Below, in pieces: positions 15,001 to 36,000 of a DNA stretch of 64,000 bases (position 1 is the first letter of the stretch; each line of letters opens with the position of its first letter). The DNA is taken from NCBI GenBank assembly GCA_029261055.1, contig JAJDCA010000075.1:77573-141572 (forward strand), in the 5' to 3' direction. The notes under the pieces were generated by a model. The model ran no database searches and was not told the origin of the DNA. It saw only the letters and a list, made by a program, of their open reading frames with translations. A program made the translations under genes and the position numbers. The DNA is from Candidatus Omnitrophota bacterium. Its GTDB lineage: Bacteria; Omnitrophota; Gorgyraeia; Zapsychrales; Zapsychraceae.

Positions 15001-18000
15001 AAAGTTTTAGAAATTCTATGTTGATTGAAAAGGACGGGTTTCGTAAGGCTGCCTTCACACGATCGGAGATACTAACTTTAGCTAATTTTGATATTTTCAG
15101 CCCTGATGAAGATAGTGATGCCGCCGCTAAAGAGTATTCTCGCAGCGATAAACTATTGGCTAACTCATGGATGAAAGAAGTGAAGGAGGCCAGAAAGAAA
15201 GATTTTAGTAAATATGAAAATACGTATGATCGAAAGAGACATGTGTATCAAGTTGCGCATGACTTTAAAATGGATGCACCTTCCTTTATGAACAAAACAC
15301 GGACCGCTATCAAAATATTAAACGATGGGACAACGTTAGCATCTTTGGGATTTATAACGACAAGAACTTGGGATCAGGAATTAACCGAACAGGATTTAGC
15401 TCCCCGTGTCGAAGGGGACAAAGGCAAGGTATTTATCCTTGGGATTATTAAGGATTATTCTGGGTTACAGCTTAACGAGAAACCCATTCCTGGTGTCAGA
15501 ATTAATCCACAAACTGGTGACGCGGTGGTGCATATTGTTTCGTTTTACGACTCAGGGCGTGTGACTATTAGTAGGGTGGTGTTTAAATTGCGCATAGGAC
15601 CTCTTAATCAGCAATTAAGTCTTGAAAAAGGCAATCCGTCAGAGGGGAAGGTCCGGTATGATTTGGCCGTGGTGTATGACCTGTTGGGGTATTACCGGGA
15701 AGCCATAGATCAAATCAAGAAAGGATTGAAAGTTCGTGGCGCTGAAAAAAATATTTATAAAAAATTGAGTGTATTGAAGATTAATACTAAAGGTTTGCGT
15801 GTGCTGGACGGCACAAAACATTGGTCCGGTGTTAAATCTGCCATAAGAGGTTTTAAAAAAGTGGCGAAAGCAATAAAAGACTTTAAAGAAAAGAATGGGC
15901 ATGATTTAGATTTGTCCCTTTATCCGAAGGACATGGTTCGACGATTATATGAATTTATGGGAGACGCGATTTACAGGAACGATCCATACAAGGCGGCACG
16001 GTTTTATCGGGAGGCCTTGAAAATGGCCCCGCATAATCTTGGCTTGTACAAAAAATATTATGACCAAATCTTAAAAGATTCTTTGGATAAGTATTTTGTC
16101 CTTTTGGAAGATTTCATGAAAAGAAACAAAAGAGATCCCGATGGTAAGGAAAAGTTAGACATGGTGTTGTTTCAGATTGGCATCAGGGTGGAAAATTTTA
16201 AGGGGTGGTTTCACCTTCAGGACAATTTAAGTGAGGGGGAATTAGAAAGGCTGGGCCACCGATTAATTCTCAAAACCGCTTTGGAGGACGAGCATCCGGA
16301 TTATCGGACATGGTGGTATTTATATATTGAACAATTATTGAAAGACCTTAATGAGATGAGTCAGGGTGATTTGGTCTCACGGTATGAGTCTTTCGGTATA
16401 ACCGATACTCTTGCACATAATGTGATTGTTTACCGGGAAAAATTAGATCAGGGACAAAAAATGCGCCTGTATCAACTTTCCGATATCAAACAGTGGCATA
16501 CAGGGGAAAATAAGGGCCTGATTGTAAATTTATTGTATCCAAAGACAGAATTCATTGAGCAATTATTTCATTTTAAACGCGGTAAATTAAATGAACTGGC
16601 TAATGAGTCTATTCCTTCGGAAACAACGAAAGGAAGTAATGAGCAAGCCGGCATTAAATCTTTCAGTACAGAAATAGAAGCAGGTCTGGTGGCCAAACAT
16701 GACTACGAATATCAAAGCAAAATTTTTTCTTTGGCGTGGGCGCACCGTGATCGGGCCGTTGAGCTTTTGGGTTATGGCGACAGCGTTGGGGCTGAACGAG
16801 AATATAATACCGCCATCAATCTGTTTAAAGGCAATCGGGTTTATTTTGAAGGGGTCTTTCCTATGGATGCGCAAACGGCTTTGGGACATATTTTTAATGA
16901 GATGTTCTGGATTTTTTCAAAAGAAAAATATAAAAAATTTGCCATAGATAGTTTTCAAGTCGTGATTGATAGAGAGTTATTTGATATTGATTATAGAAAG
17001 GGTTATCAAGCGGATAAAAAACTTCCGGGTTTTCAGGAAGAAAGAGTTCGAGATTTCGGAGAGCTGGGGCAATTATTTTCGATGGGAGATCGGTTTTATG
17101 CTTCTTATGCCAGGGAACAGTTGAAACGTTTAATGGACCCACAACAATACGATGCTTTAATTCAAGATGTAGAAAAATATATGATCTTACTTAAGAGGGC
17201 GCAAGAGCCAGAACAAAGCACACAAGATAATAAAGGAAATGAAAAGAAAAATTGGGATGATTTACGGGTGACGATTGAGAATATTTTTAAAGTCGCAGAA
17301 AAAAATCTACTGGATAAGGGCGCGGTGGGGTTTAAAATTCAAAAAGCGTTTAGAAAGGCAGAGTTAATAGAAGGCGTAGATGAGGAAAGTTTTTCAATCA
17401 AAGATTATTTAGGAAGCTTCACTTCAAAGGAAGATGCGACCAGTGCAGCAGAGACGTTAAATACTGAAAACAATGTCACCCAATATAATCCGTACGTCGC
17501 CGACTTCCTCATTTGGTTAGCCCAGGCATGGCAAGAGCATTGGGCGTCGCGAAAGGATTCTTCATCAGACGATTCCTCTAACGGTCGGACTATCTTGTCG
17601 ATCATTCTTTGGTTTGCCTTTCTTCCAACTCTCTTATTCACATGGGCCATGCAGGTAGCCGTTTCCTCTGGCGCTAATTTCTTTGGGCCAATCGGGAATG
17701 CTGTTGCCGAGCCGTCGTCTATAGGGACGGTAGGGACGTGGGTGGGGGCATTTTTAGGGATGATGGGGATTTTGGGGCGTATTTATATGACGGGTCAAAA
17801 TACGAATGCTCGTACAGAGGAAGAGAAAGAAATGCAAAGCCATTTTGATCCAGGGGCTGGGTTGGGGTTTTTAAAAAGTATGTTAGGGACAAAATTATTA
17901 TCCGTGAATCAAGCTTCTGATTCCGGTCAGGAAGCAGCTAAAGAAGAATCGGTTGAGCATAAAAGGTTTGCGCTTTTAATGTCGAGGCTTAGCGTGCATA

Positions 18001-21000
18001 TGTTGAAATTTATGGGCAAGGATTTAAAAGACAATACATCCGGCCTTTTTAGAGCCAGGGAGTTTATCGCTAAAGAGTTGCGTTTAGTTTGGCACCATTT
18101 CCCTTTTTCCGGTGTTATTGCAGTTTTGTCTCAGGAATTTGAAAAATTGAGAAATATGTATAGTGGCGAAGTTATGGTCGGCAGGGAAATGGGCGAAGGA
18201 CCTACTTTTGATGTTATTCCGGGGGATTTTGAAAAGAAAAAAGGTTTTATGGACGACAATGTATTGGGCACTCTTATTTCTATGGGCGTGACAGATGAAT
18301 ATGGTGTCAGGCATGTGCCTCCGAATATTGATGCGGAGGTGATTTTGTTGGGAGAAAAATTTAGGCATGCAAAAATTTCCATCAACAATACCCCTGCAGA
18401 AAATTTGGCTATTATGAAGCGATACATAAATAAAGACTACAAGGATTTACGCATAGCGGTTCCATTAGGCAAGAAATATGACAGGCTGGCGAAGGCCATT
18501 CGTCAAACAGGGGCTCAGGTCATACGTCTTGATGATGAATGGACCGGTCCTATATTTGCCTTGAGTGATTACGATCGTATCCCCGGAGAAAAACGCTTGG
18601 ATGCCATTATGGGGGTTAGGCCATTAAATCAGGCGGTGTTGTCAGCTATTCAAGTGATAACGATGGGCGGCCGGATACGTGCCAGAGTCGTGCCTAAAAA
18701 TATTTCAGCCAGACGCGTGGCGCATGAAATAAGTGACGACGATGTATTTTCTTATGAAGAAGTGATCCTGTTAGCTAAATTTAATATATTCAGACCGCAA
18801 AGATTTTATAGAAGAGGAACTATAACGGATGATGACGCTCGCGCATGGTTGCAAAGAATTGAAAAGGCAATAATTAATAGGGATGTGTCATCAAGGATGG
18901 GAAGAATTATCGGGAATAAAAGATATGCTTATCAAGTCGCGCATGACTTTCAGATGACATTGAGAGAGTTTGTGAGAAAAACTGAGATGGCGCTTATGCA
19001 AATAGGGAAAAAAGAAACATTCCAAACCCTTGGTTTTAAGGGGGCGGAAGACTGGGATAAAGAATGGACCGAAGAAGATTTGGCGCCGCAGCATAAAGAA
19101 GATCATGGCAAAGTATTTATCGTCGGGATAATCAAAAATTTTAATTGGATGTATGCAGATATAGCAGATAAAACCCCTGTATTGGGCGTCCGCATTGATC
19201 ACAATACTGGGGTTGCCAAAATTAACGTCATTGTAGCCGGAGCTTCAGGGAAAATTGATATTGTCGAGACAACATACAAAACCGTCATCAGCACTGAGCG
19301 TGAGAAATTGGAAAAAATTAAAAGGGTAGGTAATAAAAAAGTAGAAGCAGCCATAGCGTTAAGCATGGGATTAGCCGAAGCTGGACATTTTGCCTTGGCT
19401 TTGAACAATCTGAAAGAAGCCTTGGAATGGGATGGAACAAGCCCCACACAAAAAAATGATTTAGAGCTTATGATATACAATATTCAAGGATTAAAGGCAC
19501 TCACAGAAACCCCAAAGTTAGAGGATATAGAAACAGCGGTTATTCCTCAATTTAAAAAATCCCAGGAGAAAGCGGGGGCAAACGATACGTATCGTCTTGG
19601 CCATATGCTCAGGAGAGTGTATGAATACTTAGGAGATGCGTATAAAAATCAAAAGAAATATTCTACGGCCATTAAGTATTATCATAAGGCTTTAAATCAA
19701 AATCATCAGGATAGTTTTCTTTATAATAAATTGTTTAAACAGGTGATGGAGAAAACCATCGCACGGTATAGAAGACAAATACAGCAAAGGATTAAGATAG
19801 CAGGAAGTTACGAGGGACTAAAATCCTTTAAAGTAAGGATAGTATTTAAAACGCGTTTTAAATCAAGGCATCTTAAGCATAAAGAAGATCCGAATAGAAT
19901 GTTACGTCAATTTTTACTGCGGGCGATTTTGAAAGAAGAGAAAAAATATTATCATACACTTTTAATACGTTATTGGGATCAGCTGCAACGGGACATTAAT
20001 CAACTTTCGGGAGATGCTTTAGTACGTCGTTACGGGGAATTGGGTATGGATGCAAATAAGGTTAGGTTTTTGACGGCATACAAGAAAGGGGAGTGGTATC
20101 ACTGGCTAATATTTTGGAAGAAGAATCGGATGAGAGCCATAGGGCTTTATCAGATAGATAAGGTCAAGAGATGGGATTATGGTTTTATTACGCGGTTAAT
20201 GCTTCCGGGTAAAGAGGTTATTGAAAAGTTATTTAATATCAGAGGTGGGCTGGCCAATGAATCAGAAAGAGAAGATATCCCTTCAGTGGAGGATCCGGTT
20301 GCTATGTTAGGCATGCGTCTTAAATTTTCCAGAGAAGAGCAACGGGAAGGTATTGTGAGAATGGATATAGGAAGGAATTATCAAAGGGAGGCTTTTTCCT
20401 TGGCGATGACGTTCCGGGATATAGGGGCCGAGTTATTTAGTGATGGACAGAAAAAAGGGGCTGAAAAAAATTATCGTCAGGCAACGGAGATACTTGAAAA
20501 AAATAGAGAACATTTTGAAGCGATATTTACTTTGACCGCTCAATTAAGACTGGCTGAAATCTATGAAGAAATGGAACAATTTTTTCCGGATCAAGGATAT
20601 TTAGACAGAGCGATCCTGGCCTATGAAATTATGACGGATAAAGAAAAATTTTATGAGGCGTATAAATATTTTAATGGGAAAGAGCGGAACCGACGAGATT
20701 TTGAAGGGATTATAGAATTTTATGGAAAAGAATTAATCAGGCGGGCCCAAGAACGGTTAAATCAATTACAGCCCTCCGAAGAGAAATCAAAAAAGAAGGA
20801 TAAGAAAGATGAAATACTTCGTACGATATCTTTATTGGGGCAGGCTCATATTCAGGCGGATCATTTAACAGAAGCAGAATTAACGAAAGCAAATACAAAG
20901 ATAGAATCTCTTGTTCAAAAAGGACGTGAATCGGAGCATATACAGACTACGGTTATTATTACCAGAGAAAATGAACATAGTAAATTTGTGAGGGCTGGCC

Positions 21001-24000
21001 TGAATTTTTTAAGGATTATTCAAGATGAGGATCTGTGGAAGGATGAAGGTATTCATATTTTTAGCGACGCCATCATCAAAGCTTATCAATTAGATGAAAA
21101 TGAAATTATTCTTTTTAATAGGTTGGTTAATATTAAAGCAGAAGTGAACGAGAAGGATAATTTGGACAGTGCTGAAGCTCATCAACACAAATCCCCCATA
21201 CCCAAAGTCATCTTAATGGGGCTGTTTGGTGTGCCGGGGGGGATTCTTACGTTTTTATTCGCTTCGCCATGGGTGGGGCCAGTTCTTTTGGTTTTGGCGG
21301 CGGTGTTCGGAATAGTAATACTGGCGGATATTATTGCATTTGGATGGATGATGTGGCGCGGGGCTGGGATAAGAAAAAGTACATTTTTTGAAAAAGTAGG
21401 ATTGGCTCAGCGAAGAGGAATGCTCCCCGCTGATTTATCCATAGACAAAATAAAAATTTCTAAGGACGGACGTTTAGGTTTATGGCAAAGCGCAGCATAT
21501 ATAGACGGCATTATCTATGTGCGGAGGGAGGCGGCGTATTCGCTTAATGCATTAGTTCGTCTGCTTCGGCATGAGATATATCATATGAATCAGAATGGTC
21601 TTGATCCACCTGTCCCTGTTGCTAACGTCCTGCTGCGAACTCCTTATCTTGCTGTGTATTATCTTTTTTCTTTCCTTTATTATTTATACCACGAACTATC
21701 CGCTGAGCTTTCCGAAAGGGCACCGGAACACCGCAGCCGTCATACAGAAAAAACACGGGAGATTTTTAAGAAAATAAATTTCCCCCACCTCAAGACTCAA
21801 CAGAAAAAAGATATTAGAAGGCTTATTAATGATTTGACCGAGTTTGGCCTTGACCAAGAAATCATTCAAGATATTGCGGATGTCTTGAGTATTGTTGATA
21901 AAAAATATACGTATACACCCGTTCGGCGTACTTTTGATGAAGCACAAAAAGTAGTTCAAGAATGGCATAAGAGACACGTTAATTTTGATGAAGTTCCTGA
22001 TGAGGCTGTTTTGGTTGGTGTGCTCCTTTATGATATCGGAAGAATTTTTATTCCCCACAAGATACTTTACAAAAAAGGATTACTTACACCGAAAGAAAAA
22101 GAAATCTTTAATAAAAAATTACAGTTAGGGACAAAATTTCTCGGCCTTATTCCGGGAATGAAAGACGTAACGGAAATTATTTTGTATCATTCGAAAGAAT
22201 ATTTTGGTGGAAGCGAATATTCCCAGGGCTTAGAAGGAAAATCTGCTCCCCTTGGCGCACGCATTGCCGCGGTGTTTGATGCTGTCGATGCTATGACATC
22301 AAACCTACCTTATCGTAAAAAGATATCCCGAGAAGAAGCGGTCATTGAGTTAGATAAACATAAAGAGTATCAGTTTGATTCGGATGTGGTGGATGCCTTT
22401 CTATCTGTTTATTCAGCAAACCGTCAGCCGTCAGGTTTACAACAAACAGAAAAAAATGTACGTATGCAACAAGATAGGGGTGACCTAAACACAGATGCAT
22501 TGTCCAGAATATTTAGAAGTATTTTGGAGAAAGTTGGAGAGCTCAAAGAAAAATTATACACTGACAAATTGACAGGCCTTAAGAATGTTGAATTTTATGA
22601 AGAAAATATTGCTTCAATTATTCGCAGTGCTCATGAGGCAAAACAACCACTTGCCGTGATCATGCTGGATATTGATCATTTTGGAAATGTTAATAATCAT
22701 TATGGACATGATGCAGGTGATCTTGTTTTAAAGAACGCTACCCACATTATTTCCCATGCCCTGCGCGATGATGATGATATTTTTAAAGTTATACGCAAAG
22801 GCGGCGAAGAAATTTATATTATTCTTCCGGGAGTAACGGAAGAAAATGCCATAAAAATTGCCGAAAGGATAAAAGAATTTCTGTCTTGGATTAGTCGAGA
22901 AGATGGCGAACGACTTACAGATCGTACTGCCGTTGATAGCGAAGGTCGCAGATTAACGCTTACCGTCAGCCAAGGTATTGAGGTATATACCCCTGATTCT
23001 TCTAAAGAATTTCTTTCGGATGATGATGTACAGCAAATAAAAACCGACTTGGGAAAACACTCTGATGCCGCATTGTATATCATCAAGGAAAATGGACGGA
23101 ATGGGTATAGGGTGTATCAGCCAGGGGATGAGGTAAAGGCTGAGGAACAATCTTCCGCTGGGAATAAGGGGACTAGTGCTTTGGCTGAAGAACCTCAGAA
23201 TTTGAGGGATCATATAAAAGAAAAGCATGCGGATCTTAGTGAACATGGAATTGTGGCTTTCGAGACGGATAAAGTTGAGAACGAAGTATCTTTTAATGCG
23301 GATGGTGCGGAATTGGTAAAGCGTCTTGAAGTAGAGAAGGGTATTACATTTAAGGAACAGGTGATTAAACTTAAAGATAAAAAAGGAAATAAGAATGGAA
23401 AAATACTTAAGGTGACTATTCCAGTTAATGCGCACCTTTCAGAGAATGCGCTTATGGCTCTTTTGCAAACGGCTCTGGCCGTGGCAGACCTACGCGATCT
23501 TCCTGATGACAAACCGTATTATCTTATTCCCGCCGCTTACATCCTTTCCCCAGATAATCAAGACAGTTCTTCTTCCCATCTCGCTGGTGTATATCCTAAT
23601 GCACGCTTGGTTTTTCTTTCTAATGAAATTCTTTACGGGGCATCTCAAAATAACGACGGGCCACCCGCATTTGTTACTCTGTTAAACGCACAATTTACAG
23701 GAACGCTTATGATTCGTAAAGGTGGAAAGAAGGTTAAGGTTGAGCCAGAAGAAATTGGTTTGGGTGATTTCTTTTTACGTCTTATTATCCGGCATGAGTT
23801 TAGACATATTGCCTATCCGAATCTTAGCGAAGAAGATTTGATGGCCTTTGATGCTTTTGACTTAATTACTTTTGCTCGGAGTATTAATGTGAAGGATAAA
23901 GAAATTGTCAAGAAAGTTGCCAGTGCACTTTTAGCGGAGAAAGTTATTAGTCAGGATTTTTACAATGCGATTGTAGGTTCAAATATATTACTAATTTACA

Positions 24001-27000
24001 AAAATGATAAATATCAGAAGCTTATTAAACATACGGTTTCAAAAAAAGATTTTGTTGCCCTTGATGGTGTAAAGATACAGGAACGCCTAGGAGGAACAGG
24101 ATCTCTGTTTATTGGTTATCCACGAGAATGGATACGATTAGTTAAATATCCTTTTGCTCCAATTAATTTTGATGTGGAATATGGATTTGTTACAAAAGTG
24201 CGCCTCCTTGATAGTTTGGGGTATGTATTTAAGGAAGAAATATTATTACGGAAAGAATCGGCAAATGGAAGCTTCTTGGGGACAATAGCTTCCCGAATAA
24301 ATAAAGATGAGTTCTTTAAATTTGATAAAGTGTGGATTAGAGGTAAAGTTTTAAGTGCTATGGGCATTTTAAGAGTTGGAAGAAAGGATCCTTGGATGTA
24401 TTTAGGTGCTAATTATGATGGTTATCCCGTAGACTTTTATGTTGAACAGGGGATGGTAACTAGAATCCATATTTTTGATGAGGAGGGAAAGCATGTAATA
24501 AAAAAATTGGAAGCAGCACGCGTATATGACTCCTACGGCCAGTTCATTAATGTCATATTTGGCGATATAACTCCTGCTGCGTTGGCAAAATTAGATGGAG
24601 TCATTATCAAAGATGTGCCTCTTCAAGAAAATGGCGACCTTATTTTCGGAACTATCAACTGGACTAGTTTTGAAAATTATCCAGGGGGTAAGGCAGATAT
24701 CCGGATTGTTAAAGGTAAGGTTGTTTTTGCTAAAATCGTGGAAGACGGTTGTTGTCAACGGGTGAACACTCGTGCTGGAGAAGGTTTTGGACAGACCCGA
24801 AGGAAAATATTATTAAAAGGCGAGCTGGCTCTACAGGAGCACATTGAGGTTTCTTTGAAGTCGGCAGGTATTTTAGATGCGCAGGCTGGGGATATTGCAC
24901 AAGTACTGGTGCGGCTTAAAGAAAATTCATTAGCCATACTCGTTAAGGATGGTCTACTTTCCAAAGAAGACGCCGATGCCTTAAGAGCATCTCGGTATCA
25001 AGCATCGGATGTTCAGGCCAATCTCGCGCATAGCTTACTTTTGCAGGCGTCGACCTATCAAAACTATGGCCTCTCACGTGGTCTGATTGATTTTCTTCTT
25101 CAGCCTATGTGGGCCTTATTGGACATAAATGCTCTTGACTATGATCTTAAGAAGAAGCTTGAAGCGTTCATACCTGAAAATAATCAAGATATAGGGACCC
25201 TTCTTTCCGAGGATCAAAATACTCTGGCAAAGAAATTAATTGAGTATATGGAGCTCTTCACACATATTCCGGTAAAGGAACCAAGAAATAAGATTCTTCC
25301 CCAGTCCAGGATAGACACTCTGCTCGCGCCGTTATTGGATCAGATGGATATTAATCAGATAGATAATAGAATTTATCAAGAAATCCGTACATATGAAGGT
25401 CGGGGATATTCGCTTGTCATGGACGGGCGGCTTAGATCATCTTCTAAAGAGCCTCTGAATGCGCAACGACTTGGGCATAAATTTCAGGAGCAAATACGCT
25501 TGTTTAAAGATCATGGCCTTCATGAGAAATTGATTGCATTTTTGTTTCAAACCCATCTTTTTCCGTGGGAGACCATCGCACGTTTTCTGCGGACTTACAG
25601 GCTCTTTAAAGATGTCACCAGAATTTGGGAAGCCTTGAGTTCTGATAATGTTGAAGCTCATATTAGAGAAGGGCTTAAAGATAGAGATGGTCAGCCAGGG
25701 ACTTTAGATAGAGAAAAACATCTCAAGAAATATGACCCAAATAAAACACCCGTTGCAGATTTAAATTCGCTTTTGGCAGATTTGAAATTCAGGAAAAATA
25801 TTTTAGACCTACTTCAGCAGGGCCCCGAATCCGTGGAATTTTCTTATGAGGTGGTTTATACGGATAATCAGATGCCCGTGGTGCAGTTTTATAAAAATAA
25901 CCTTCCGGATGATTTTAAGAATTTTGATTTTAATGAAATTACACAATTTATTTTTACAACACGTGCGCAAGGTCATGAATTATTTTTTGAGGTGACCGAA
26001 GTTATGGATGCTGGTAAATGGAAGGCTAAATTACGGAATGTTGGTCAGGGATCCATAGATTTACCCAACAAAGGCAAGCTGACCATAGTACCAGTTGCGG
26101 ATGTGAATACAGATCTTGAATCAAAAGCGGTTGATCAAATTATAGAAGATCAGAAAAATATTGATAAAGGAGATAAGCGCCCTGATAAATTTAGTCGACT
26201 TTTTGGATTGGCTCCACTCACACAGGACTCAAGGCCGACAACGGTTGAACATATTATGGATGAAAAGATTCCCTATCGTCTTAAACCGGGATCTATAGAT
26301 GAATATACAGGGGATCAGAGTCAGGAAACAGCCGTTCATTTAGCTTCGAATAATACAGAGGTAGTTTACATCGACGGGCCTGTCGGCACCGGGAAGACCA
26401 CGGTTATTGTAGAAATTATCCGTCAGGCTGTTTTGCAGGGCAAAAATGTCCTTCTGGTATCTCAAATGCATCGAGCTGTGGATAATGCTTTGTTAAAACT
26501 TTTAGAAGCCGATCCGGAAATTCCGGTTCTTCGCCTCGGAAAAGATCCATCACGTTTTGAGGAGGAATTCAAAAAGAAATTTTTAGATCAAGTTTGGCCG
26601 GGAGTTGTTGAAAAAGGACGAAACAATTCCGGAAGAGGAGATCCTCAAAGAGTGAAAAGAGTCCTGGATACGTTTGCTGAGAAACAAAAATCAGGAAAAG
26701 GATGGGTTATTGCTGCAAGCAGTACTGGTGTTGCGCTGGACCATATGTTTCTTGGTCGTGGTGTTGATGAAAAAGTTGTTGATTTGTTTGTTATGGATGA
26801 AGGTAGTAAGGAGAGAACGACAGGCGGGTTTGTTCCTATGCGTTTTGTAAAGGACGATGGTAAAATAGTAGTTTTTGGTGATATTAAGCAGCTTCCTCCA
26901 CATCCTTTGAGTAACGCACAAGTCAAATATCTTAAAGCACAGGGCATATCAAAAAAAGATATGGATGTCTTTAATATGAGTATTCTGGAATGGTTATTGA

Positions 27001-30000
27001 CACAACGTCCGCCTAAAGATAGTCATGGGCAGGTGTATGGGGATAGGGTTATGCTTTCTACGAATTGGCGCTCGCATCCATTTTTGGCCTCATTAATTTC
27101 TGATTGGAGCTACGATGGGGAGCTGATACCTAACGGATATGTAGATTTTGATAGAGATACATTCCGGATTATCAATATTTCTGATAAAGGCGTTGTAGCT
27201 GGAGCTATGCCTGAAGATGGTTATGAAGAAGCGGTGGGAACCTCTTTTAAAAATACTACTTCCGCGAATGAAGTTACGAAGGTTGTAAGACAACTCAAGG
27301 GAAAGGGCGTGAAGGCGCGGGGTATTACCAACATTACAGGTTATGCCGCACAGGTTGCATTGCTTAAAGAAATATTAGAAGGTATTGAGACTTCATCGAT
27401 TGATAATTTTCAGGGTCGGGAAAGTGATGCAACCATCATTGACCCTGTCCGGAGTAACCGTTTTAATGATATAGGGTTTATTAGCGACCTTAAGAGATTG
27501 TTGGTCGCTATGTCACGAGCTAATAATTATTTGGTCTTTGTTGGGGATATGAACACGATGTTAGGTGAACTTGATAAGCAGAAGCGCCCACATGATAAAA
27601 ATCGACTTAAAGAAATTGAAGATGCTAAAAGTCTCATGCAAATCATGTTTAATGATTATCTGGATAAATCCAGTATTTTCTTTGACGGGCCTCCACTTAT
27701 AGTTACTTGGTCTCCCCATGTTCAAAGTCTTTCGATGGATATGCCTTCAGCCAATCTCAAGCTGGCACGGATTGCCGATGGAATGGAAGCTTCTGTAAGA
27801 CCGTGGGTGCGATGGCTGGGTAAAATGCTTAAATTTTTCTTAAAATATATATTGGTTATCTTAACCCATGAGCTTGCACATTATTTGGGGGCGATGTTGT
27901 GGAAGCAGAAACCACGTGCTACTTGGGAGGAATTGAGTACAGTTGGTCGTACGCATGACGTTGACGGTGCCCCGCGTTTATTCGGCGCTATTGCCAATCT
28001 TATCATTGGTTTGAGCCTTGTGAAAATAGCCTTACTTTTTGGTTTTACTTTCCTTCCCTACGCAATTCTTGCGGGACTGGCTGCATTCATTGCCGCTTTT
28101 TATCTTTTCGCTGCGGTGATTGATATCATGCATCCACGCGGAGATTTTGCGCAATATGTGCAAGATCTGAGGGAACCGGTTAAAGATTTTTTTCATAACC
28201 TCAACTCCAGATTTGTTAAAACATTAGCTGTTTTTATTTTTATTATGGGGATTATCCACATTCTGCAGCCATGGGGTCTTGGGGTGCACATTGCTAATAT
28301 TGGTTTTGGGGTGTGGGGGGTTGGAAAATTAAACAATGCTAGTGTGGGTGTGAATATTGACCCAAATGGTCAGCGCATGGGGCGTCAGGCTTTTCCTGGG
28401 TTGATGGTGTCGATATCCGTTATGGACGCCGGGGCTGAGATGCGTGTCGAGGATAATCAGGGGAATGAAGTTGTCAGTTATAGTGGTTCGATTAAGACGA
28501 TCATCGACGTGTTACCGTATTTACAGTCGCGGGGTGTAAGCGCGATATACCTATACGGCGGTATTTATACCCCAAGTGAAATTTCGAAAGTTCTGCATCC
28601 AAAACGACGTTTTGAAGAAGAGCTGGTTAAGACAGAGAGAAAAGGCACCTACGTGGTCACAAACTATCCTGATAACAATACGAAGCAAATAGGGAATAAA
28701 AAATTTGCGGATGTTAATGGAATGCCTTTTTCTATGATGGGTATGACTGAAGATATTGCGGATCCGGAGAGTCTTTTAAAAATTAATCCTCAGCTTTCGG
28801 ATGGCAATGCCAGGGAAGATATTTTTGAATTGATACAAATAGCTAAGAAGTTAGGGTTAGAGGTTTATGCTGATTTAATTCCGTGGCTTGCGCCGGACGC
28901 GATCACGGCAGACAATTATCATTTGTTTTTGCATAAAGAGGTGGGGAATGATGAAGAGGAGACAAGGAGGATTAATGAAGAATTTAGTAATCTTCCTAAT
29001 GAAGAAGCCGAAGATAAATATCTTTTTAAATTTCTTAAATCTAAAAATGAAAGTTACGAATTTTATTTTGCCAAATGGATTCCCGAAAAAAATAATGAAA
29101 GAATTGTTCTTTTCCCTCGAGCAGATATTAATCTTCCTAGTGCCGATCAGGTGATATTAAATATGTGGCTGCCGGAAGTGCAGGCGTATTTAACCAACGC
29201 GGCCGTGCAGTGGTCCAAGGCCGGCGTGACAGGTTTACGGGTTGATCTGGCGGCTAAATTATTAAATAATAAATTAAAACGCCCAGAATATTCGAATCTT
29301 GTTACAGCGGAACAGAAGGAAAAAATTGAGAAATTTTACAAAAAAAGTTGGCAAGAATTTATGGAGTCTGACGATCCTGAAGATGAACCTTTATATCGCG
29401 TTATTCAAGATACGAAAAAAAAGATTGGAAATGAAAAACAAATGGCCTGGCTGATGGAGGCCTATGAACGAGGATATGATAATGCGGATATGTATACACG
29501 GTTATTAGATATGGATCCTTCTGTCAAAATGTATTTCGAATGGGTTAAGTTGGCTTATGAGGATGATGATGCGGGAGAAATGTCCAAGAAAATTTATAAT
29601 ACTATCTTTAAAAAGGAATACCGTGGACGGGTTGTGGTTTATGGGGCAAATTTTGATGAAGAGTCTCTTGTGAATATGATGGGTTCCCGGGAAGGATTAT
29701 TGATGATTTTGATTACTTTGGCTTATTTAGACGTCGGAGTCATGATTGACGTACGTGAGTGGATGGGGCATTCTGGGCAGATGATTAAAATCTCAGGTCC
29801 GAATCATCCATTTTTGAATGCGGAAGAATTGGAAGTTCGTTTAGAACCTAAGGGGTATGAAAAGGCATTAAGGCAAGGCCCGGTTGATCAGCTGATTAGA
29901 GACTTTCTTGAAGCCGTTCCTCAAGGGGATGTATCTGTAATTAGCGTAAAAAGTTCGAATAAGTCAGACAAGGATCACAAAAATAAACTTCTTAAGATTT

Positions 30001-33000
30001 CTTTTAATACGAAGTATGGAGAAACACGTATAAGTGTTATGTTAAATTTTAGTCCTCAAAGGACACCGTTTAATGAACAAAAGTTTATGCGGGGGCTTTA
30101 TCCTGAGGAGGCAAATCAGGATAACAAGAAAAAAGTAAAAATTGAACGGGGAGCATCCGTAACGATGTTTGGAAAACTTTGGAAAAATTGGCGATGGGCT
30201 AAAGAAGATCAATTTTATTTGATTGAAAATGAATGGGGATTTTATTTAGATAAAAACAGGCAGATTGAAGATTCAGAGAAGCTGAGGAAGGTTGGTTTAA
30301 AAATAAAGGTAACCAAGGATTCTTCAAACGAGGAATTATATCCACTGGAACCACGAAATTTGAAAGTCGCGTTAGGGAGGGATGCATCTGGTATTGAACC
30401 GGATAAAGTTGAAATGCTTTTTAAACAAGCACAGGAAGGTGGGGAGGAAGTAGAGCACGGAATAACAGTATCCACCCCATTATATCATTCTAAAAAAGAC
30501 AGCAGCGAGGAATTGATTGTCTATAATGGCATGACTTCCTTTCTAATGCCCGGGTATTATGCCGCTTATATATTGATTACAGTGGGCGGAACAACTTATT
30601 CTGTAAAAGAAACAGTTATATCTGTCAGCGCACCTAAAAAGGATGAACCATGGACGCATGGCCCGGTAATAACAGCCTTAAATGAGTCTGCTCAAAAAGA
30701 GGGTGGGGTGGTGTTTTCCGGTAATGGGAGCTCAGCGGTGGATGTCAAATTTCTTGAGAGTAGAGGCATTGGCGCGGTGTTGAATATTTCTAATGAATTT
30801 GATTATGTTTATTCTGTGGAAAGCGGCATAACGTATGAAAAAATAGTTCTGCCTGAGGAAAATGATAAAGAATTTCCGATGGATAAACTGCAAGAGGCGA
30901 TGGATTGGATTAGTCAGCATATTACAGAAACCAATGTTCTTGTCGTTAACCGTAAGGGCCTAAATTCTGTCGATACCGTAACGTTTGCTTATTTGTATAA
31001 GTTTGATTCCCGAAAAAGAAGTATTTGGGAGGTGGCGGAAGATATTAAACAGAAAAAAGCCGAGGCTTTCCCTCATTTGCAATTAGCGGAAAAGGCAAGT
31101 GAATTGCGGGATGCCCCGGAGATGACACAAAAGATGGTTGTCGATAAAAAAGTTAAGGAAATTGAGATAGTTGGTTTATCTGTGGATGGAACCAATTATT
31201 CTGTTGAGGAATTTCCAAACGAAATTCAAATAGGAAGTAAGATTGAAATTACAGCCGGTATTAAAGCAGAGGAAGGAGTCAAAGATCTTTTTGTTACTGT
31301 ACGGACAAATAGTGAGACAGGGTTTCCTTACAATGATATTAAAATGAAGAGCAGGGGAGTTAATACTACGAAACCAGAGCAAGGAAATATTTTCTATGCT
31401 GATTTTACGGTGAATCATCCGGGAAGCATATGGTTTACACTCTCCGCAGCCCCGTATGGTCCTGGAATTTTGCATGATTTTAAACGTAAGTGGATGGGGA
31501 AGAATATTGAATTTGAGGCGAACAATCAAAATATTTCTTGGGGGATGACGGAGGCGGATGATATGGCTGTGATTGAGGCGGCAATTCTTGATGATAATGA
31601 AGCCATAAAACCAGCTGATGAAAAGGTGACAGAGGCCTTTAATGTGGTGAAGAAGTCTTTACAGGATAATGGTCAGGGCGATTTAATAAAATTTATTGAA
31701 ATTAATAATTTTCGATTTGTTCACGTAAGCCATAAGAATAAGAGCAATCCACGTTCGCCACCGTATTATCTGTGGCATGATTCCCCGCAGAAATTTCTCC
31801 TCGCCCGAGCTATAAAATATCAAGAACAAAAATACTTCTTTGTTTCCTACGACTTCATTCTTCTTCTGATGGAACACAATAAAATTGACCTTCTTACCCA
31901 AATTCTTCTTAATGGGGGGCGCCACATACAAGGCGATCCTTTTTTAAAGAATGAAAATGTTTTAGATGGGCTCATGATTGTCGATCAATGGGCGAGGTTG
32001 GAAGCGATATTAGCTCAACCAGGACAACAACACAGCATTCCCCCCATTCAATCTTGGGACTGGGAAAGAGACGCCTCCAGAGAATTTAAGCTTCTGGAAG
32101 GTCAAGGGATTATTATTCGTAATAAAAAAGAATTTAAAGTGATTCTGTATGAAAAAGCGGCAGATCAAGATCATGATCCTATCTCTTCCATGAAATTTAA
32201 AGGTAAGGGGCATAAGTCAAATATTGTGATTCTGCAAGGGCTTAAACCGGGACAATATGTTTTGAAGTTTCAGTTTGAATCCGGCATGGAAGAACATGTT
32301 TATAATATTAAGGTTTTATCTGAGCAGCTTGGCGAGGCAATGTTAGGGGAACAGTTGGAAATATTCAAAGAAGGCGTGCAAAGAATTTTTGATAATGAGG
32401 GAAAGCCTGTTCTTATTTTAGATCTCGAAGATAATTTAACCGATGGGCGTGATGGCGATATTATTCCGGGGATAATAGAGATTCTTACGAAGATTTCAAA
32501 AATGGGAGGCGTATTATTTGGATTGAATACAGGGGCTGTTTGGGCCAGTGATAAAGATTATAAAGGTGTCGAGGAACGGGTGATACATAAGATACGGGAT
32601 CAATTTCATTTTGAATTTCTGATTTTAGATGAAGGGCAGGAAATTCGTGTTTGGGATGCCGAAGAGAAAGAATATAAAAAAATAGCCCTTCCGAAGAATA
32701 CTAAAGGGAAAGGTGTAGGGATTCAAGAGCTCATTAAATATTCTGAAAACCTACGTATTGAAAATGGTGTCTATATTGCGGATTTTCCGGATAATGAAGA
32801 TCGCAAGCAGCCCGCCATTGATGATTCTACCCTCGTTGAGCGATTAGGTGTTATTGTCTCCTCAGGACGCCTACGCGAAGATCTTAAAGTAAAATATCCA
32901 AACACCACAACCTTCATTCAATCCGCCCTGGGTGGTGTTTATGGCCCGGAAGTGACTCTTAGGTTTTTGCAAAGTTTTCTGGATGTTGTTGAGGCTGCAA

Positions 33001-36000
33001 ATAAGTCTGGAGAAATAGCGAAAAAAGGAAAAGGTAAATTTAATGTAATAATGTTCATGCTTGGAATAGGACTATTTATTGCGAACGCCCTGGTGAATTT
33101 GGTGGGAGATGTGGGTATGCCTACGGTTGAGGCCGCGACCATTGATGTTACTGGTCTGCATAACATTGATACGTTGGTATCGCAGAGTACGTCAGTGATG
33201 GCTACCGGTCTGAGCGCGGCGTTTGGGGTGAAGGAAGTTGGTTATATTCTTGGAGAAAGTTTACTATGGACGATGTATGCTGTAACATTTTTAGGTTTTA
33301 TCCTAAAACCTCTAATATGGTTTTCATATCAGATTTATGCGTCTATAAAAAGAAATTTTGTATCGATTTTTTTGTGGTTTGTGTTGTTCTTTGGGTTGAG
33401 TCAATTTGTGTTTGTTCTTCCAGAGGAAGGTATTGAATTTTGGAGATGGGCCCTTTGGGGCGGTGTGGGTGCTGCGCTGTTGGGATTTTTTTGGAATCAA
33501 GTATCCCCTTCGAATTTGGTTCAAACTATGGATGCCGTTTATAAAAAAAATATTCGTTCGGCGATTCGTCGGGCAAGGAAGCTTGGAAAGGATGTTGGGA
33601 TTGTGGTTACCGGTACGGGGGGGAGTGGCAAAACGAGAGAGAAGGATGTCCTAATGCAGCTTATTGAAAAAGAATCTGGCAATGCCCCGCTGGAAATTTC
33701 TTACGATGGGATTATGCTTGAAGAAGCGCCTGATGAGGACATAAAAAAGGCTGAGGATTTGTGGAAGAGTTTCTGGCAGGCTGTCATAGATAATCCGGAA
33801 GCTCAAAATAATTCGACAATTATTAAGACATTGCGTAAGCTGTTTGATGATTTTAATGCAGACCTTATGCAGCGAGGGTTTCGCTCATTTGATCTTCATT
33901 CGCCCAATTCATTTAATGGTGGCAAGCTTAAAGTACGGCAGGGGATGACTATGAAGTTTCAGGCGGATCGATATTTACGGCTTTGGAAGGCTTTGAGTGC
34001 GGGGGGGGATGTGACACCAGATAATTTTGAGCATTTATTGTATCCGGTATTCGATGACAATTCGCGGGGGCGTCTGCGTATCCGTTGGAAGGTGCGTGAT
34101 GGGAACGGGGCGTTTGAAATCGTTTTTCGTGCGCGGGATAACTTGCACGCGCGTATTGTGAAGGGCACAACCTCGGGCACGCCATCGCAATTGGAATCAG
34201 GGTATCAGTTGAAATTTTATATTGGCGATAAACTCTTGGACAATGAAGATGTTCCCCACGAAACGTCTGTTAAAGCTTTTGGGCTTAAAATTCTTGAGAC
34301 GGCTAATGCGCCTCCAGGGCAGATTGATTTTCAGTTAGCCCATAATATCATCCATCTGCAAGAGCCCACCCATACAAGCCTCCCCCAATATTATTATGAT
34401 GATTTATCTGCCAAAGAATTTCATCTGAGCGTTGAGGAAAATACGTTGCAGGAATTACGTATTTTTTACAATTCGAGTCCTCAAAAAAATAATCAGCCAC
34501 GTGTGTATATAGCTGAAGGTGTTGGCTCACATTTACCGTTTATGGCGACACATATTTTTAAAGAAGTGTTATTACGCGACGGGCATTCTACCGAATTTGT
34601 TAATAATATTTTGTCGGACAACGTTGTTCTTGAAGGGATACTTGTTTTGGTGGATATGGATCAGTATCCACGTTATTACAGATTAGTTCAACGAACGGAA
34701 TATCAGAAAGGGTATACAAAAGGGTCAGATGAATATATTAATGACCGTATTCAAATGGGGATAAGAGAAGATCCTGTGATTAATGCTGTTCGAGAAGCAG
34801 TAGATTTGCTGGTAGTGACAGGTCAGCGTTTGGCAGAGTACCTGTTAGGCCTTTACTATTCCGGCATATTGTCCCGCCCTCGTTTACAAAATAAACATCA
34901 AAAGAAAATACTCAAACAATTAAAACGATTGCCCTTGAGTGATTTGAAGGATATTTTTGCATCTAGTCACGATGCTGGGCATATGCGTTCACCATGGAAT
35001 CCGAACGACCTTCCGCGGAGTATCCGTGACCGTTTGACGACCATCAGTCAGCAAACAATTCTTAAAATTATAAAACAGAATGGGAACAGGTTAAACCATT
35101 TAAAGACGGTGGGGGAAATTACCGCCCTTACGCTTCATGGGTTGGTGATTAAATTTGATAATACATTCTGGAAATTTGATAAGGGCCTTATGGTCCATGC
35201 GTTTAGTCATTCACGAGTCAATTTTTATAATGAAGAGGTTAAAGAACGGCTTGGCGAAAGGATGGTGCCTGGACGAGTAATGGATTTGTCTTCTCTGGGA
35301 CCAATTACATATTTTGATTCCGAAGGATATGAACATCAAATTCATCTGGGGACAGTGCTGGTTCAGCAAATGGAACGGCCTTTGGATGATCGGCTTGCGG
35401 AGCTTATTAAAATGGAAGAACGTGCCCGTCTTTTTGGTCAGAATGCTTTGGCTGATCTTTATCGACGAGATGCTAAGGAAGTAATTATTCGATGGGTGAC
35501 GACATTAGGTGAAATGGCGGCATTGGGTTTCGAAGATAAGTCTCCTAAAACCAGCCGCTATGCGGTTATGTTTGTTCATGATTTGCTGGAAGGGTTGCGT
35601 GAAAATGTGGTGAGTTTGGGAATCAGTAGCCTTGAAAAAGTGACCGATAGACGGGCCGATCCTTTCTGGTTTATGAATGATTTGTCTTCATACAATGAAG
35701 TCCTAAATTCTATCCCTGAGCCGTTACGGAATGATTTTTTACAGGCTGTAGAAGATTATCAGCACAATAAGGCCCTTAAAATTTTTCCTAGGCGTATCCC
35801 GGCTCCATTTAATGGCAAAATTCTTTTAGAGCAGATGGCCTTTTTGAATGGTATTGATTTTCGTTTAAAACTTTATGCTTTGTCTAAAATATTTAAAAAG
35901 GAATACCGTGGTCTGGCGTCGATTCTTGGGGATAAAGTTAAGGTAAAGAAATTTATTGGGAGCATAACGATGCCCAATACTGCCGTTGAAGTCGCCATTG

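What the first reader, a model, noticed from the sequence alone, without database searches (positions are those of the whole stretch)
25840..27560. Intact Upf1-like SF1B helicase domain inside a membrane giant protein, with a decayed paralogous copy at 40.5-41.6 kb
All canonical motifs are present (GTGKT, DEGS, GDxxQLPP, DNFQGRESD, Arg-finger motif VI). A conserved N-terminal accessory domain (NFDFNEITQFIF...) precedes the domain and is also duplicated. The second copy has lost Walker A and B and the QLPP motif, so it is likely a pseudo-enzyme scaffold. A nucleic-acid motor domain within a polytopic membrane protein that also carries carbohydrate enzymes is unexpected.
Basis: partly seen in the sequence, partly recalled or inferred. 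Interest (0 to 1): 0.6.

Follow-up and report, generated by a model that had tools for sequence, protein, structure and literature searches.

The report
Helicase cassette inside giant membrane protein
A seemingly functional RNA/DNA helicase of the Upf1/IGHMBP2 type, plus a catalytically dead half-copy, sits in a >20,500-residue membrane-anchored protein of an Omnitrophota bacterium; the helicase belongs to a small clade, not mentioned in the papers I could search, found in very large or signal-peptide-bearing proteins of a few phyla.

Summary
The window is almost entirely one ORF (150-61652, 20,500 aa, still open at the left edge). MutL next door places it in Omnitrophota.

**Copy 1.** Residues 8534-9176 (nt 25749-27677) form a complete Upf1-like SF1B helicase. 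Pfam gives AAA_11 at 4e-18 and AAA_12 at 3e-31. All motifs (Q, I, Ia, II, III, IV, V, VI) are present. The AlphaFold model matches IGHMBP2 and Upf1 at E about 1e-28.

**Copy 2.** The copy at nt 40425-41585 is a true paralogue (32% identity, E 2e-53). It lies within a collinear intragenic duplication of about 1,300 aa. It has lost Walker A, Walker B and motif III. It also lacks the whole RecA2 half and runs straight into a membrane hairpin. It keeps non-catalytic conserved residues about as well as copy 1, so it looks like a retained dead module rather than uniform decay.

**Family.** The helicase belongs to a discrete clade (Omnitrophota, Elusimicrobia, Auribacterota) with a conserved upstream beta-repeat array. 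Charge distribution places the window's copy in the cytoplasm. Several stand-alone relatives nevertheless carry Sec signal peptides, which I cannot explain.

**Verdict.** This is a new variant of a known kind. The substrate and biological role are unknown.

The parts
150..61652 (+). Giant ORF (20,500 aa in the window, open at the left edge) that hosts everything below
   Evidence: Pfam domains: GT4, alpha-amylase, FBPase_glpX, TPR, HD_5, GGDEF, AAA_11/AAA_12, two Methyltransf_25, NTP_transf_2, HTH_3.
21207..21338 (+). Tight hydrophobic hairpin (aa 7020-7063) that opens the 2,220-aa soluble loop carrying HD_5, GGDEF and the helicase
   Evidence: The 6-residue loop has no K or R; the right flank has 3-4 K/R.
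23121..26999 (+). Duplication unit 1 (aa 7658-8950): HExxH region, beta-repeat array, helical linker, 1B and RecA1
   Evidence: Self-BLASTP shows collinear matches to aa 12548-13805.
23976..24794 (+). Array of three ~90-aa beta-rich repeats (aa 7943-8215), part of the conserved cassette
   Evidence: Conserved upstream of the helicase in P0121, P0242, P0250, P0240, P0241, P0239, L004, L006 and others. AF2 mean pLDDT 77. No significant PDB fold match.
24795..25748 (+). Helical linker (aa 8216-8533); the part from about aa 8428 is conserved across the clade
   Evidence: The AF2 helices here have low to moderate pLDDT.
25749..26165 (+). Subdomain 1B of copy 1: stalk helix, six-stranded beta-barrel (contains NFDFNEITQFIF), stalk helix (aa 8534-8672)
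   Evidence: AF2 model residues 107-245. Foldseek alignments to IGHMBP2 and Upf1 span about 670-700 columns.
26316..27020 (+). RecA1 (1A) of copy 1 with a short 1C insertion: Q motif GDQSQE, Walker A GPVGTGKT, Ia VSQMHRAVDN, Walker B DEGS, III GDIKQLPP
   Evidence: Pfam AAA_11 E 3.9e-18. Motif coordinates. Clade conservation.
27042..27563 (+). RecA2 (2A) of copy 1: motif IV WRSHP, motif V DNFQGRES, motif VI AMSRAN (Arg finger)
   Evidence: Pfam AAA_12 E 3.2e-31. Alignment to IGHMBP2 4b3g.
27597..27677 (+). C-terminal helix of the cassette (aa 9150-9176)
   Evidence: AF2 H723-749. Conserved in relatives.
27822..28268 (+). Membrane cluster after the helicase (aa 9225-9373): hydrophobic HELAH segment followed by three hydrophobic segments
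   Evidence: Paralogous to aa 3234-3380.
37524..37730 (+). Hairpin (aa 12459-12527) preceding duplication unit 2; paralogous to the hairpin after copy 2
   Evidence: (aa 12398-12531 matches 13773-13907).
37791..41564 (+). Duplication unit 2 (aa 12548-13805), collinear with unit 1. Its HExxH positions read HGFRR and QGFKE
40425..40844 (+). Copy 2, 1B-like stalk and barrel (aa 13426-13565; NFDFKQIGQFIF)
   Evidence: BLASTP against copy 1.
40914..41585 (+). Copy 2, RecA1-like domain without catalytic motifs (aa 13589-13812). No RecA2 follows
41667..41840 (+). Hydrophobic hairpin immediately after copy 2 (aa 13840-13897)

Best explanation
**Copy 1.** Copy 1 (aa 8534-9176) is a catalytically competent Upf1-like SF1B helicase. 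By analogy with Upf1, IGHMBP2 and Sen1, it would grip single-stranded RNA or DNA across RecA1/RecA2 under the 1B barrel. It would use ATP hydrolysis at the RecA1-RecA2 interface to move 5' to 3'. It is the core of a conserved cassette: beta-repeat array, helical linker, 1B, RecA1/1C, RecA2, C-terminal helix. Here the cassette sits in a 2,220-residue loop, shared with HD and GGDEF domains, between two membrane hairpins. The charge distribution says this loop faces the cytoplasm. The motor is therefore held at the inner face of the membrane and can only act on nucleic acid that comes there. The most obvious such nucleic acid is RNA being translated at the membrane, including the giant's own 61-kb mRNA. 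That last step is inference only.

**Copy 2.** Copy 2 arose by an old intragenic duplication of about 1,300 aa. It lost the ATPase residues and the whole RecA2 half, and the HExxH motifs of its unit were lost as well. It cannot be a motor. It is retained as a folded 1B plus RecA1-like module, with a structural or binding role.

**Shown:** fold, motifs, clade membership, the duplication, and the pattern of loss. **Inferred:** catalytic activity, polarity, topology, substrate and role.
For: **Identity of copy 1.**
- Pfam AAA_11 and AAA_12.
- PDB sequence matches: IGHMBP2 at 1.4e-27, Upf1 at 1.7e-15, Dna2 at 2.2e-12.
- AF2 model with pLDDT 76 and pTM 0.74, showing stalk, barrel, stalk, RecA1, RecA2.
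- Foldseek top hits: IGHMBP2 at 5e-29, then Upf1, ZNFX1, Dna2 and SETX.

**Likely activity.**
- Copy 1 keeps 18 of 18 clade-conserved catalytic-motif columns.
- The same motifs are conserved in about 35 clade members from several phyla.

**A discrete clade.**
- Profile scores fall from 508-868 bits to 307 bits outside the clade.
- NJ monophyly in 50 of 50 bootstraps.
- Members lie in ORFs of 1,330 to more than 5,743 aa, or are complete proteins of 952-1,402 aa.

**Topology.**
- There is no hydrophobic segment between aa 7063 and 9284.
- In 13 isolated hairpins, K+R is 6 of 214 in the loops against 77 of 390 in the flanks (Fisher p = 3.7e-10).
- Relatives show the same trend: 7 of 144 against 63 of 414, p = 7e-4.
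- The loop also holds a GGDEF domain, which uses GTP.

**Copy 2.**
- E 2e-53 against copy 1.
- Sister to copy 1 in 200 of 200 bootstraps.
- No closer relative among 1.84 billion representatives; the best is 37% identical.
- Catalytic columns kept 3 of 18, against 24 of 43 for other conserved columns (p = 0.006).
- Faster evolution: 52 lineage-specific changes against 29 for copy 1.
Against: - No biochemistry exists, and the RNA-versus-DNA preference cannot be read from sequence.
- Topology rests on a crude hydropathy scan and the positive-inside rule. SignalP and DeepTMHMM were not available, and the N-terminus of the giant lies outside the window.
- Several stand-alone clade members (L004 ORF, P0121, P0124, P0241, P0250 and others) have a canonical-looking Sec signal peptide and no other hydrophobic segment. 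That predicts export of the helicase and sits badly with a cytoplasmic role.
- Copy 1 sits on a long branch and keeps only 29 of 43 non-catalytic conserved columns.
- ORF integrity says nothing about copy 2, because any stop codon there would also remove about 6,700 downstream residues.
- The c1+c2 sister grouping could be inflated by long-branch attraction. Against that, both share the barrel sequence NFDF..I.QFIF, which is absent from the other members aligned.
- The role on membrane-bound mRNA has no direct evidence.
Confidence: 0.6

Rival explanations
1. The cassette is an exported effector. The helicase is carried across the producer's membrane by Sec, and possibly onward by a secretion system. 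It works where ATP is available again, inside a prey or host cell, on that cell's RNA or DNA. In the giant, the large loops would then face outward or be inserted into the target membrane.
For: - Complete relatives start, immediately after an in-frame stop or at their annotated Met, with a positively charged n-region, a 12-16-residue hydrophobic core and an A-x-A site.
- Examples are L004 (MKNRSVRGICALFLTLGLTLPAFA|LRQ), L008, P0121, P0124, P0241, P0250, P0255 and P0259.
- Several of these have no other hydrophobic segment.
- Omnitrophota are described as predatory or host-dependent, and giant genes often lie near type II secretion genes (paper 10.1101/2023.11.21.568195).
- That paper's TMHMM runs placed most domains outside the cell.
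Against: - In the window's giant the hairpin loops are almost free of K/R and the flanks are rich in them (p = 3.7e-10). That is the signature of large segments staying in the cytoplasm.
- Multi-hairpin relatives show the same pattern.
- In L006, L008, P0239 and P0254 a second hydrophobic segment before the helicase would return the chain to the cytoplasm.
- The loop also carries GGDEF and HD domains, and the protein carries GT4, methyltransferases and an FBPase. All of these use cytoplasmic cofactors.
- The 2026 preprint reads such giants as anchored in the inner membrane with a cytoplasmic bulk.
- No signal-peptide predictor was run.
Confidence: 0.12
2. The helicase is the sensor arm of a Mokosh-like antiviral system that has been fused into the giant protein. 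It recognises phage RNA or replication intermediates.
For: The best PADLOC hit is MkoA (E 5.7e-51, profile positions 617-1081 of 1112). MkoC also hits at 4e-14. Mokosh is defined by a COG1112 Upf1-like RNA helicase plus a PLD nuclease (paper 10.1101/2022.05.11.491447).
Against: - Only the helicase part of the MkoA profile is matched.
- No PLD nuclease or Ser/Thr kinase domain was found anywhere in the 20,500 aa.
- The general IGHMBP2-family model scores equally well, at E 5e-51.
- Neighbours of the stand-alone relatives are a methyltransferase, housekeeping enzymes and other large ORFs, not defence genes.
- The clade is separate from the other Upf1-like bacterial helicases sampled.
Confidence: 0.08
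3. Copy 2 has no function of its own. It is a decaying remnant of a segmental duplication. It stays in frame only because a stop or frameshift would destroy the roughly 6,700 downstream residues.
For: - All ATPase motifs are lost and RecA2 is missing.
- The HExxH motifs of its duplication unit are also lost.
- It evolves faster than copy 1, with 52 against 29 lineage-specific changes.
- No orthologue or closer relative exists in any collection searched.
Against: - Loss is concentrated in catalytic columns (3 of 18 kept). Other clade-conserved columns are kept at nearly the rate of the active copy (24 of 43 against 29 of 43). Uniform neutral decay would not do this.
- At 32-37% identity with essentially no DNA similarity left (a single 40-nt, 80% match), the duplication is old. 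Even so, core strands such as KNVLLVS, PVLRLG and FD(I/L)xIxD survive.
- At least one other large clade member (P0254, 5,205 aa) also carries a motif-dead cassette.
Confidence: 0.3
4. Copy 1 is an ATPase switch or a protein-handling motor rather than a nucleic-acid motor. This follows the idea that SecA-DEAD domains in other giants help export the giant itself.
For: West-Roberts et al. propose a self-export role for the SecA-like domains of other giants. This giant has no detectable SecA_DEAD domain, so another P-loop motor might substitute.
Against: - The motifs that contact nucleic acid in SF1 helicases (Ia, III, IV, V) are conserved across the clade, and the 1B barrel and stalk are present.
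- To my knowledge, no Upf1-like helicase is known to translocate polypeptides.
- Fold matches are exclusively to RNA/DNA helicases.
Confidence: 0.05

Closest known systems
IGHMBP2 / Upf1 (Upf1-like SF1B RNA/DNA helicases; PDB 4b3g, 2xzo)
   Same: All SF1 motifs are present. The order RecA1, RecA2 is the same, and 1B (two stalk helices plus a beta-barrel) precedes RecA1. Sequence E is 1.4e-27 and fold E is 5e-29.
   Different: - About 21-22% identity, and half the TIGR00376 cut-off score (173.9 against 348.9 bits).
- A shorter 1C prong.
- A clade-specific helical insertion after motif III (LSNAQVKYLKAQGISKKDMDVF...).
- Motif Ia reads VSQM(H/N)xAVDN rather than PSNxAVDN.
- No CH, R3H or zinc-finger domains.
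- Preceded by a beta-repeat array, and embedded in a membrane protein or preceded by a signal peptide.
Mokosh MkoA / MkoC helicase domain (anti-phage)
   Same: A bacterial Upf1-like helicase core. It is the best PADLOC hit, at E 5.7e-51.
   Different: No PLD nuclease and no kinase are present. There is no defence-island context in the relatives examined, and the clade is separate.
Giant multi-enzyme membrane proteins of Omnitrophota ('Archaeovorin'-type and multi-enzyme class)
   Same: More than 20,000 aa, dozens of hydrophobic segments, glycosyltransferase, glycoside-hydrolase-like, methyltransferase, GGDEF, HD and TPR content, and frequent internal duplication. The Omnitrophota origin is supported by MutL.
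   Different: The motor domain reported for those giants is a divergent SecA-DEAD domain. An AAA_11/AAA_12 Upf1-like helicase is not mentioned in the main text of either paper, and no SecA_DEAD domain is detected here.
Inactivated helicase folds kept as scaffolds in RecC and AddB (RecBCD/AddAB). This comparison is from my own knowledge and was not tested here.
   Same: An SF1 helicase fold that has lost its ATPase motifs but persists next to an active SF1 motor in the same machine.
   Different: RecC keeps both RecA-like domains and has a known role in Chi recognition. Copy 2 here keeps only 1B and a RecA1-like domain, lies about 4,600 residues from the active copy, and has no known role.

Membership tests
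Upf1-like SF1B helicases | Two RecA-like domains carrying SF1 motifs Q, I, Ia, II, III, IV, V and VI | tested here: met
   Copy 1: Pfam AAA_11 and AAA_12, motifs located, aligned to IGHMBP2. Copy 2: not met. Motifs I, II and III are lost and RecA2 is absent.
Upf1-like SF1B helicases | Subdomain 1B: two antiparallel stalk helices topped by a beta-barrel over RecA1 (PMC5452015) | tested here: met
   AF2 model: H107-130, six strands at 136-220, H225-245. Foldseek alignments to IGHMBP2 and Upf1 cover about 670-700 columns. By homology the region is also present in copy 2.
Upf1-like SF1B helicases | Subdomain 1C ('prong'): a helical insertion in RecA1 | tested here: inconclusive
   The model has only short helices (H378-387, H405-419), partly at low pLDDT. 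The segment is about 30-40 residues shorter than in IGHMBP2-type sequences.
Upf1-like SF1B helicases | ATP-dependent 5'-3' translocation and unwinding on RNA or DNA | not testable with these tools
   Needs purified protein.
IGHMBP2 family helicase (NCBIfam TIGR00376) | Score at or above the curated cut-off (348.9 bits) | tested here: not met
   173.9 bits, E 5e-51. It is a relative, not a member.
Mokosh defence system (MkoA+MkoB or MkoC) | Upf1-like COG1112 helicase domain | tested here: met
   PADLOC MkoA at E 5.7e-51, over the helicase part of the profile only.
Mokosh defence system (MkoA+MkoB or MkoC) | PLD-family nuclease in the same protein or an adjacent gene | tested here: not met
   No PLD or other nuclease family at E<=0.01 anywhere in the giant. 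The neighbouring gene is MutL.
Mokosh defence system (MkoA+MkoB or MkoC) | Ser/Thr kinase domain on the helicase protein (type I) | tested here: not met
   No kinase family.
Omnitrophota giant membrane proteins | ORF of at least 7,000-10,000 aa with many transmembrane segments and multiple enzyme domains, in an Omnitrophota genome | tested here: met
   20,500 aa or more. About 64 hydrophobic segments. About ten distinct enzyme or regulatory Pfam families. All named MutL relatives are Omnitrophota/Omnitrophica, at 55-63% identity.
Omnitrophota giant membrane proteins | Divergent SecA-DEAD / SecA preprotein-binding domain (said to be in most full-length giants) | tested here: not met
   No SecA family at E<=0.01 within the window. 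The N-terminal part outside the window is unseen.
Giant/large-protein Upf1-like cassette clade (defined here) | Signature motifs GD(Q/E)(S/A)QE, VSQM(H/N)xAVDN and STN(Y/W)RSHP, an insertion after motif III, and an upstream ~90-aa beta-repeat array | tested here: met
   Monophyly in 50 of 50 bootstraps. Bit-score gap from 508 to 307.

The most novel reading that the evidence does not exclude
The clade is a family of exported helicases. The stand-alone, signal-peptide-bearing members, and possibly the cassettes in giants, would be delivered by predatory or host-dependent Omnitrophota and Elusimicrobia into prey or host cells. There an ATP-driven 5'-3' motor would strip or unwind the victim's RNA or DNA. 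This would be a Sec-exported effector helicase, a kind not known to me.
Probability: 0.1. Interest if true: 0.85.

Novelty: new variant of a known kind. Interest (0 to 1): 0.5.

Why it matters
Giant proteins of Omnitrophota are among the largest known, and most of their sequence has no assigned function. This finding adds one confidently assigned, apparently active nucleic-acid motor and shows it is not a one-off. It is the core of a conserved cassette that recurs in large membrane proteins and in signal-peptide-bearing proteins of at least three candidate phyla.

If the motor works at the inner membrane face, it becomes a candidate for handling the extremely long, membrane-tethered mRNAs of such genes. 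How 60-kb-plus mRNAs are translated and protected is an open problem. If the motor is exported, it would be a new kind of effector.

The dead half-copy gives a dated, internal example of how these giants grow. Blocks of about 1,300 residues are duplicated together with their membrane hairpins, and catalytic sites are then lost wholesale. The stand-alone members (952-1,402 aa) make the biochemistry tractable.

Tried and rejected
- **Structure prediction with genome-derived relatives.** It was redone with admissible sequences.
- **Orthologues of copy 2 for a dN/dS test.**
  - 1.84 billion representatives gave only 26 hits, all 37% identical or less.
  - The JGI metagenome scan with copy 2 gave none.
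  - The second metagenome scan, with the clade profile, returned mostly generic Upf1-like helicases, because one pattern was the Walker A motif. At most L014 and L015 cover the N-terminal extension.
- **HExxH regions.** No Pfam family was found; the only trace is Peptidase_M50 at E 0.36.
- **Nuclease or kinase partners.** No nuclease, PLD or kinase partner for a Mokosh reading turned up.
- **Supplementary tables of the giant-gene preprint.** They are not held, so I cannot exclude that AAA_11/AAA_12 is listed there.
- **First tree script.** It timed out and was replaced by a faster NJ. NJ with simple distances is a weak method, so only the strongly supported groupings are used.
- **Considered and rejected:** that copy 2 was acquired independently (rejected), and that the ORF is an artefact (61.5 kb without a stop at 40% GC; the same locus occurs in an independent Logan assembly).

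Full report
**1. What is in the window.**
The + strand is one ORF from base 150 to 61652, encoding 20,500 aa. The same frame has no stop back to base 3, so the gene starts upstream of the window. The only other substantial gene is a convergent MutL at 61828-63681. Its named relatives, at 55-63% identity, are all "Candidatus Omnitrophica/Omnitrophota". The identical locus also occurs on an independent Logan assembly.

Pfam finds the following in the giant:
- GT4 (E 7.6e-41) and alpha-amylase (2.9e-14)
- FBPase_glpX and TPR
- HD_5 (aa 7288-7413) and GGDEF (aa 7470-7651)
- AAA_11 and AAA_12
- two Methyltransf_25 domains, NTP_transf_2 and an HTH

A Kyte-Doolittle scan finds about 64 hydrophobic 19-mers, mostly in tight pairs. 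This matches the giant, membrane-anchored, multi-enzyme proteins already described for Omnitrophota (10.1101/2023.11.21.568195 and 10.64898/2026.06.07.730766).

**2. Copy 1 is a complete Upf1-like helicase.**
AAA_11 (E 3.9e-18) covers nt 26313-26594 and AAA_12 (E 3.2e-31) covers nt 27042-27551. The nearest solved proteins by sequence are IGHMBP2 (1.4e-27), Upf1 (1.7e-15) and Dna2 (2.2e-12). The motifs are all present: Q (GDQSQE), I (GPVGTGKT), Ia (VSQMHRAVDN), II (DEGS), III (GDIKQLPP), IV (WRSHP), V (DNFQGRES) and VI (AMSRAN).

An AlphaFold2 model of aa 8428-9181 has pLDDT 76 and pTM 0.74. It shows a stalk helix, a six-stranded beta-barrel, a second stalk helix, RecA1 with a short helical insertion, RecA2 and a C-terminal helix. 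Foldseek returns IGHMBP2 (5e-29), then Upf1, ZNFX1, Dna2, SETX, Aquarius and nidovirus nsp13.

This is a hallmark of the family (PMC5452015), not an extra domain.

**3. It belongs to a discrete clade.**
A single-sequence search found one close relative: P0001, an Omnitrophota fragment at 36% identity. Ordinary IGHMBP2-like helicases followed at about 30%. A scan of one genome per species found nine loci in Omnitrophota, Elusimicrobia (including an Endomicrobium) and Auribacterota. In every one the match lies in an ORF of 1,330 to more than 5,743 aa, and several run off their contigs.

A profile search added P0121-P0124 at 508-868 bits, followed by a drop to 307 bits. A search with copy 2 added about twenty more members. 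The clade is monophyletic in 50 of 50 NJ bootstraps against other Upf1-like helicases.

Its signatures are GD(Q/E)(S/A)QE, VSQM(H/N)xAVDN, STN(Y/W)RSHP, a helical insertion after motif III, and usually QGGEN in motif V. Conservation extends upstream through a helical linker to an array of ~90-aa beta-rich repeats (window aa 7943-8215). This array recurs, in variable number, in many members. It models confidently (pLDDT 77) but has no significant PDB match.

Some members are complete stand-alone proteins: P0124 (952 aa), P0123 (1,258 aa) and P0121 (1,402 aa). Their neighbours give no functional hint. The best PADLOC hit is Mokosh MkoA (5.7e-51), but it covers only the helicase part of the profile. 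TIGR00376 (IGHMBP2 family) scores equally well yet reaches only half its cut-off. No PLD nuclease or kinase is present. The cassette is therefore neither a Mokosh system nor an IGHMBP2 orthologue.

**4. Copy 2.**
BLASTP between the two regions gives E 2e-53 and 32% identity over 425 aa. It covers the stalk and barrel (NFDFKQIGQFIF) and RecA1. Walker A reads QGEELQRKM, Walker B reads DRAG, and motif III reads VDMQSAWEP. The alignment stops just after the clade-specific insertion. Twenty-eight residues later a hydrophobic hairpin begins at aa 13840, so there is no RecA2 domain.

The duplication is a block. Residues 7658-8950 are collinear with 12548-13805, including the HExxH region and the beta repeats. 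Unit 2 is bracketed by two paralogous hairpins. Within unit 2 the HExxH positions read HGFRR and QGFKE.

Copy 1 and copy 2 are each other's sisters in 200 of 200 bootstraps. Their DNA shares only a single 40-nt match, so the duplication is intragenic and old. Nothing closer than 37% identity to copy 2 exists among 1.84 billion representatives or in JGI metagenomes.

I took the columns that are at least 85% conserved in 26 other clade members. Copy 1 keeps 18 of 18 catalytic-motif columns and 29 of 43 others. Copy 2 keeps 3 of 18 and 24 of 43 (Fisher p = 0.006). Copy 2 also has more lineage-specific changes (52 against 29, chi-square 6.5). The loss is therefore targeted at the active site while the structural core is kept. 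That favours a retained non-catalytic module over uniform decay, though without orthologues this is not a selection test. An intact reading frame is not evidence here, because a stop would truncate the rest of the giant. One other member, P0254 (5,205 aa), also has a motif-dead cassette.

**5. Which side of the membrane?**
No hydrophobic segment lies between aa 7063 and 9284. HD_5, GGDEF and the helicase therefore share one 2,220-aa loop. In 13 isolated hairpins, the short connecting loops hold 6 K/R in 214 residues, while the 15-residue outer flanks hold 77 in 390. The protein average is 0.131 (Fisher p = 3.7e-10). By the positive-inside rule the hairpin tips are outside and the large segments are cytoplasmic. 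This suits enzymes that use ATP, GTP, SAM and nucleotide sugars, and it agrees with the 2026 preprint's reading. Multi-hairpin relatives show the same bias (7 of 144 against 63 of 414, p = 7e-4).

Against this, many clade members with a defined N-terminus begin with what looks like a canonical Sec signal peptide. In L004, P0121, P0124 and P0241 it is the only hydrophobic segment, and an A|LR junction recurs after it. Taken at face value, those helicases are exported. I could not run a signal-peptide predictor, and I leave this as the main unexplained point.

**6. Most likely mechanism.**
- **Shown:** a complete, motif-intact Upf1-like fold in a conserved cassette, and a dead half-copy produced by block duplication.
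- **Inferred from the family (Upf1, IGHMBP2, Sen1):** single-strand binding across RecA1/RecA2 under the barrel, and ATP-driven 5'-3' movement.
- **Inferred from topology:** the motor is tethered on both sides to the inner face of the membrane.
- **Speculative:** its substrate is membrane-proximal RNA, for instance the giant's own co-translationally tethered 61-kb transcript.

The rivals are an exported effector, a Mokosh-like sensor, a non-nucleic-acid ATPase and, for copy 2, a functionless relic. They are weighed in the report sections.

**7. Novelty.**
Both the helicase family and the giant-protein class are known. The motor domain highlighted in giants so far is SecA-DEAD. Neither paper's main text mentions AAA_11/AAA_12 or a Upf1-like helicase, and the supplements were not available. 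The clade is distinguished by its beta-repeat partner, its restriction to very large or signal-peptide-bearing proteins, and the dead half-copy. It is best called a new variant of a known kind, of moderate interest.

Noticed in passing
L004:2558-9259; P0121, P0124, P0241, P0250, P0255, P0259; L008:1424-15094: Many clade members begin with a canonical-looking Sec signal peptide: a positive n-region, a 12-16-residue hydrophobic core and an A-x-A site. It is often followed by a conserved 'LR' (AFA|LRQ, ALA|LRT, AYA|LRP, GYA|LRI). In L004, P0121, P0124 and P0241 it is the only hydrophobic segment. That predicts export of an ATP-dependent helicase.
   Followed up: partly
window aa 3266, 7141, 7882, 9240, 12206, 14761, 15090, 15729, 16510, 20157 (e.g. 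nt 23793-23807, 27867-27881): The giant has ten HExxH motifs against 0.6 expected (the maximum in 2,000 shuffles was 4). They recur near module boundaries. No Pfam family was found. They may be metalloprotease-like modules that could process the giant.
   Followed up: partly
window 27822-28268 (aa 9225-9373) and 9849-10289 (aa 3234-3380): Two paralogous membrane-embedded modules share the pattern HE(L/Y)(A/G)H ... G(A/P)xxNL ... (H/S)P(R/Q)GDF. The pattern is reminiscent of site-2-protease (M50) motifs. One module directly follows the helicase. The only Pfam trace is Peptidase_M50 at E 0.36.
   Followed up: partly
window 38382-38396 and about 39441 (aa 12745, 13098): In duplication unit 2, the positions that align with the HEFRH of unit 1 read HGFRR and QGFKE. 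The whole duplicated block, not only its helicase, has therefore lost its putative catalytic residues.
   Followed up: partly
window 23976-24794 (aa 7943-8215): Three ~90-aa beta-rich repeats form a conserved partner of the helicase across the clade. AF2 gives pLDDT 77, but there is no significant PDB fold match. The domain may be undescribed.
   Followed up: partly
P0254 (5,205 aa), residues about 2508-3007: Another large clade member carries a cassette in which motifs I, II, III, IV, V and VI are all degenerate. Motif-dead versions of this helicase have therefore arisen more than once.
   Followed up: no
window 22011-23102 (aa 7288-7651): HD_5 (HD-GYP-type, E 7.9e-21) and GGDEF (E 6.6e-28) domains lie in the same membrane-bounded loop as the helicase. 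This suggests c-di-GMP turnover next to the motor.
   Followed up: no
window aa 4587-5636 vs 5824-6851; 14058-14250 vs 17795-17984; 16932-17090 vs 17502-17654; 14257-14316 vs 14834-14893; 18035-18067 vs 19234-19266: The giant contains several other internal duplications, ranging from 28% identity over about 1,050 aa to 76% over 33 aa. Some include methyltransferase modules and hairpins. The giant has grown by repeated block duplication at different times.
   Followed up: no
window 1-149: The giant's reading frame is open to the first base of the window. The true N-terminus, and any signal peptide, is not visible. The Logan contig for the same locus also ends inside the gene.
   Followed up: partly
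(databases): The window's own giant was not returned by the helicase-domain searches of the word-indexed database. Its copy-2 region found no match above 37% identity in the 50%-identity representative library, where the longest hit was 5,205 aa. Very long ORFs may be under-represented there, so counts of cassette-bearing giants are lower bounds.
   Followed up: no
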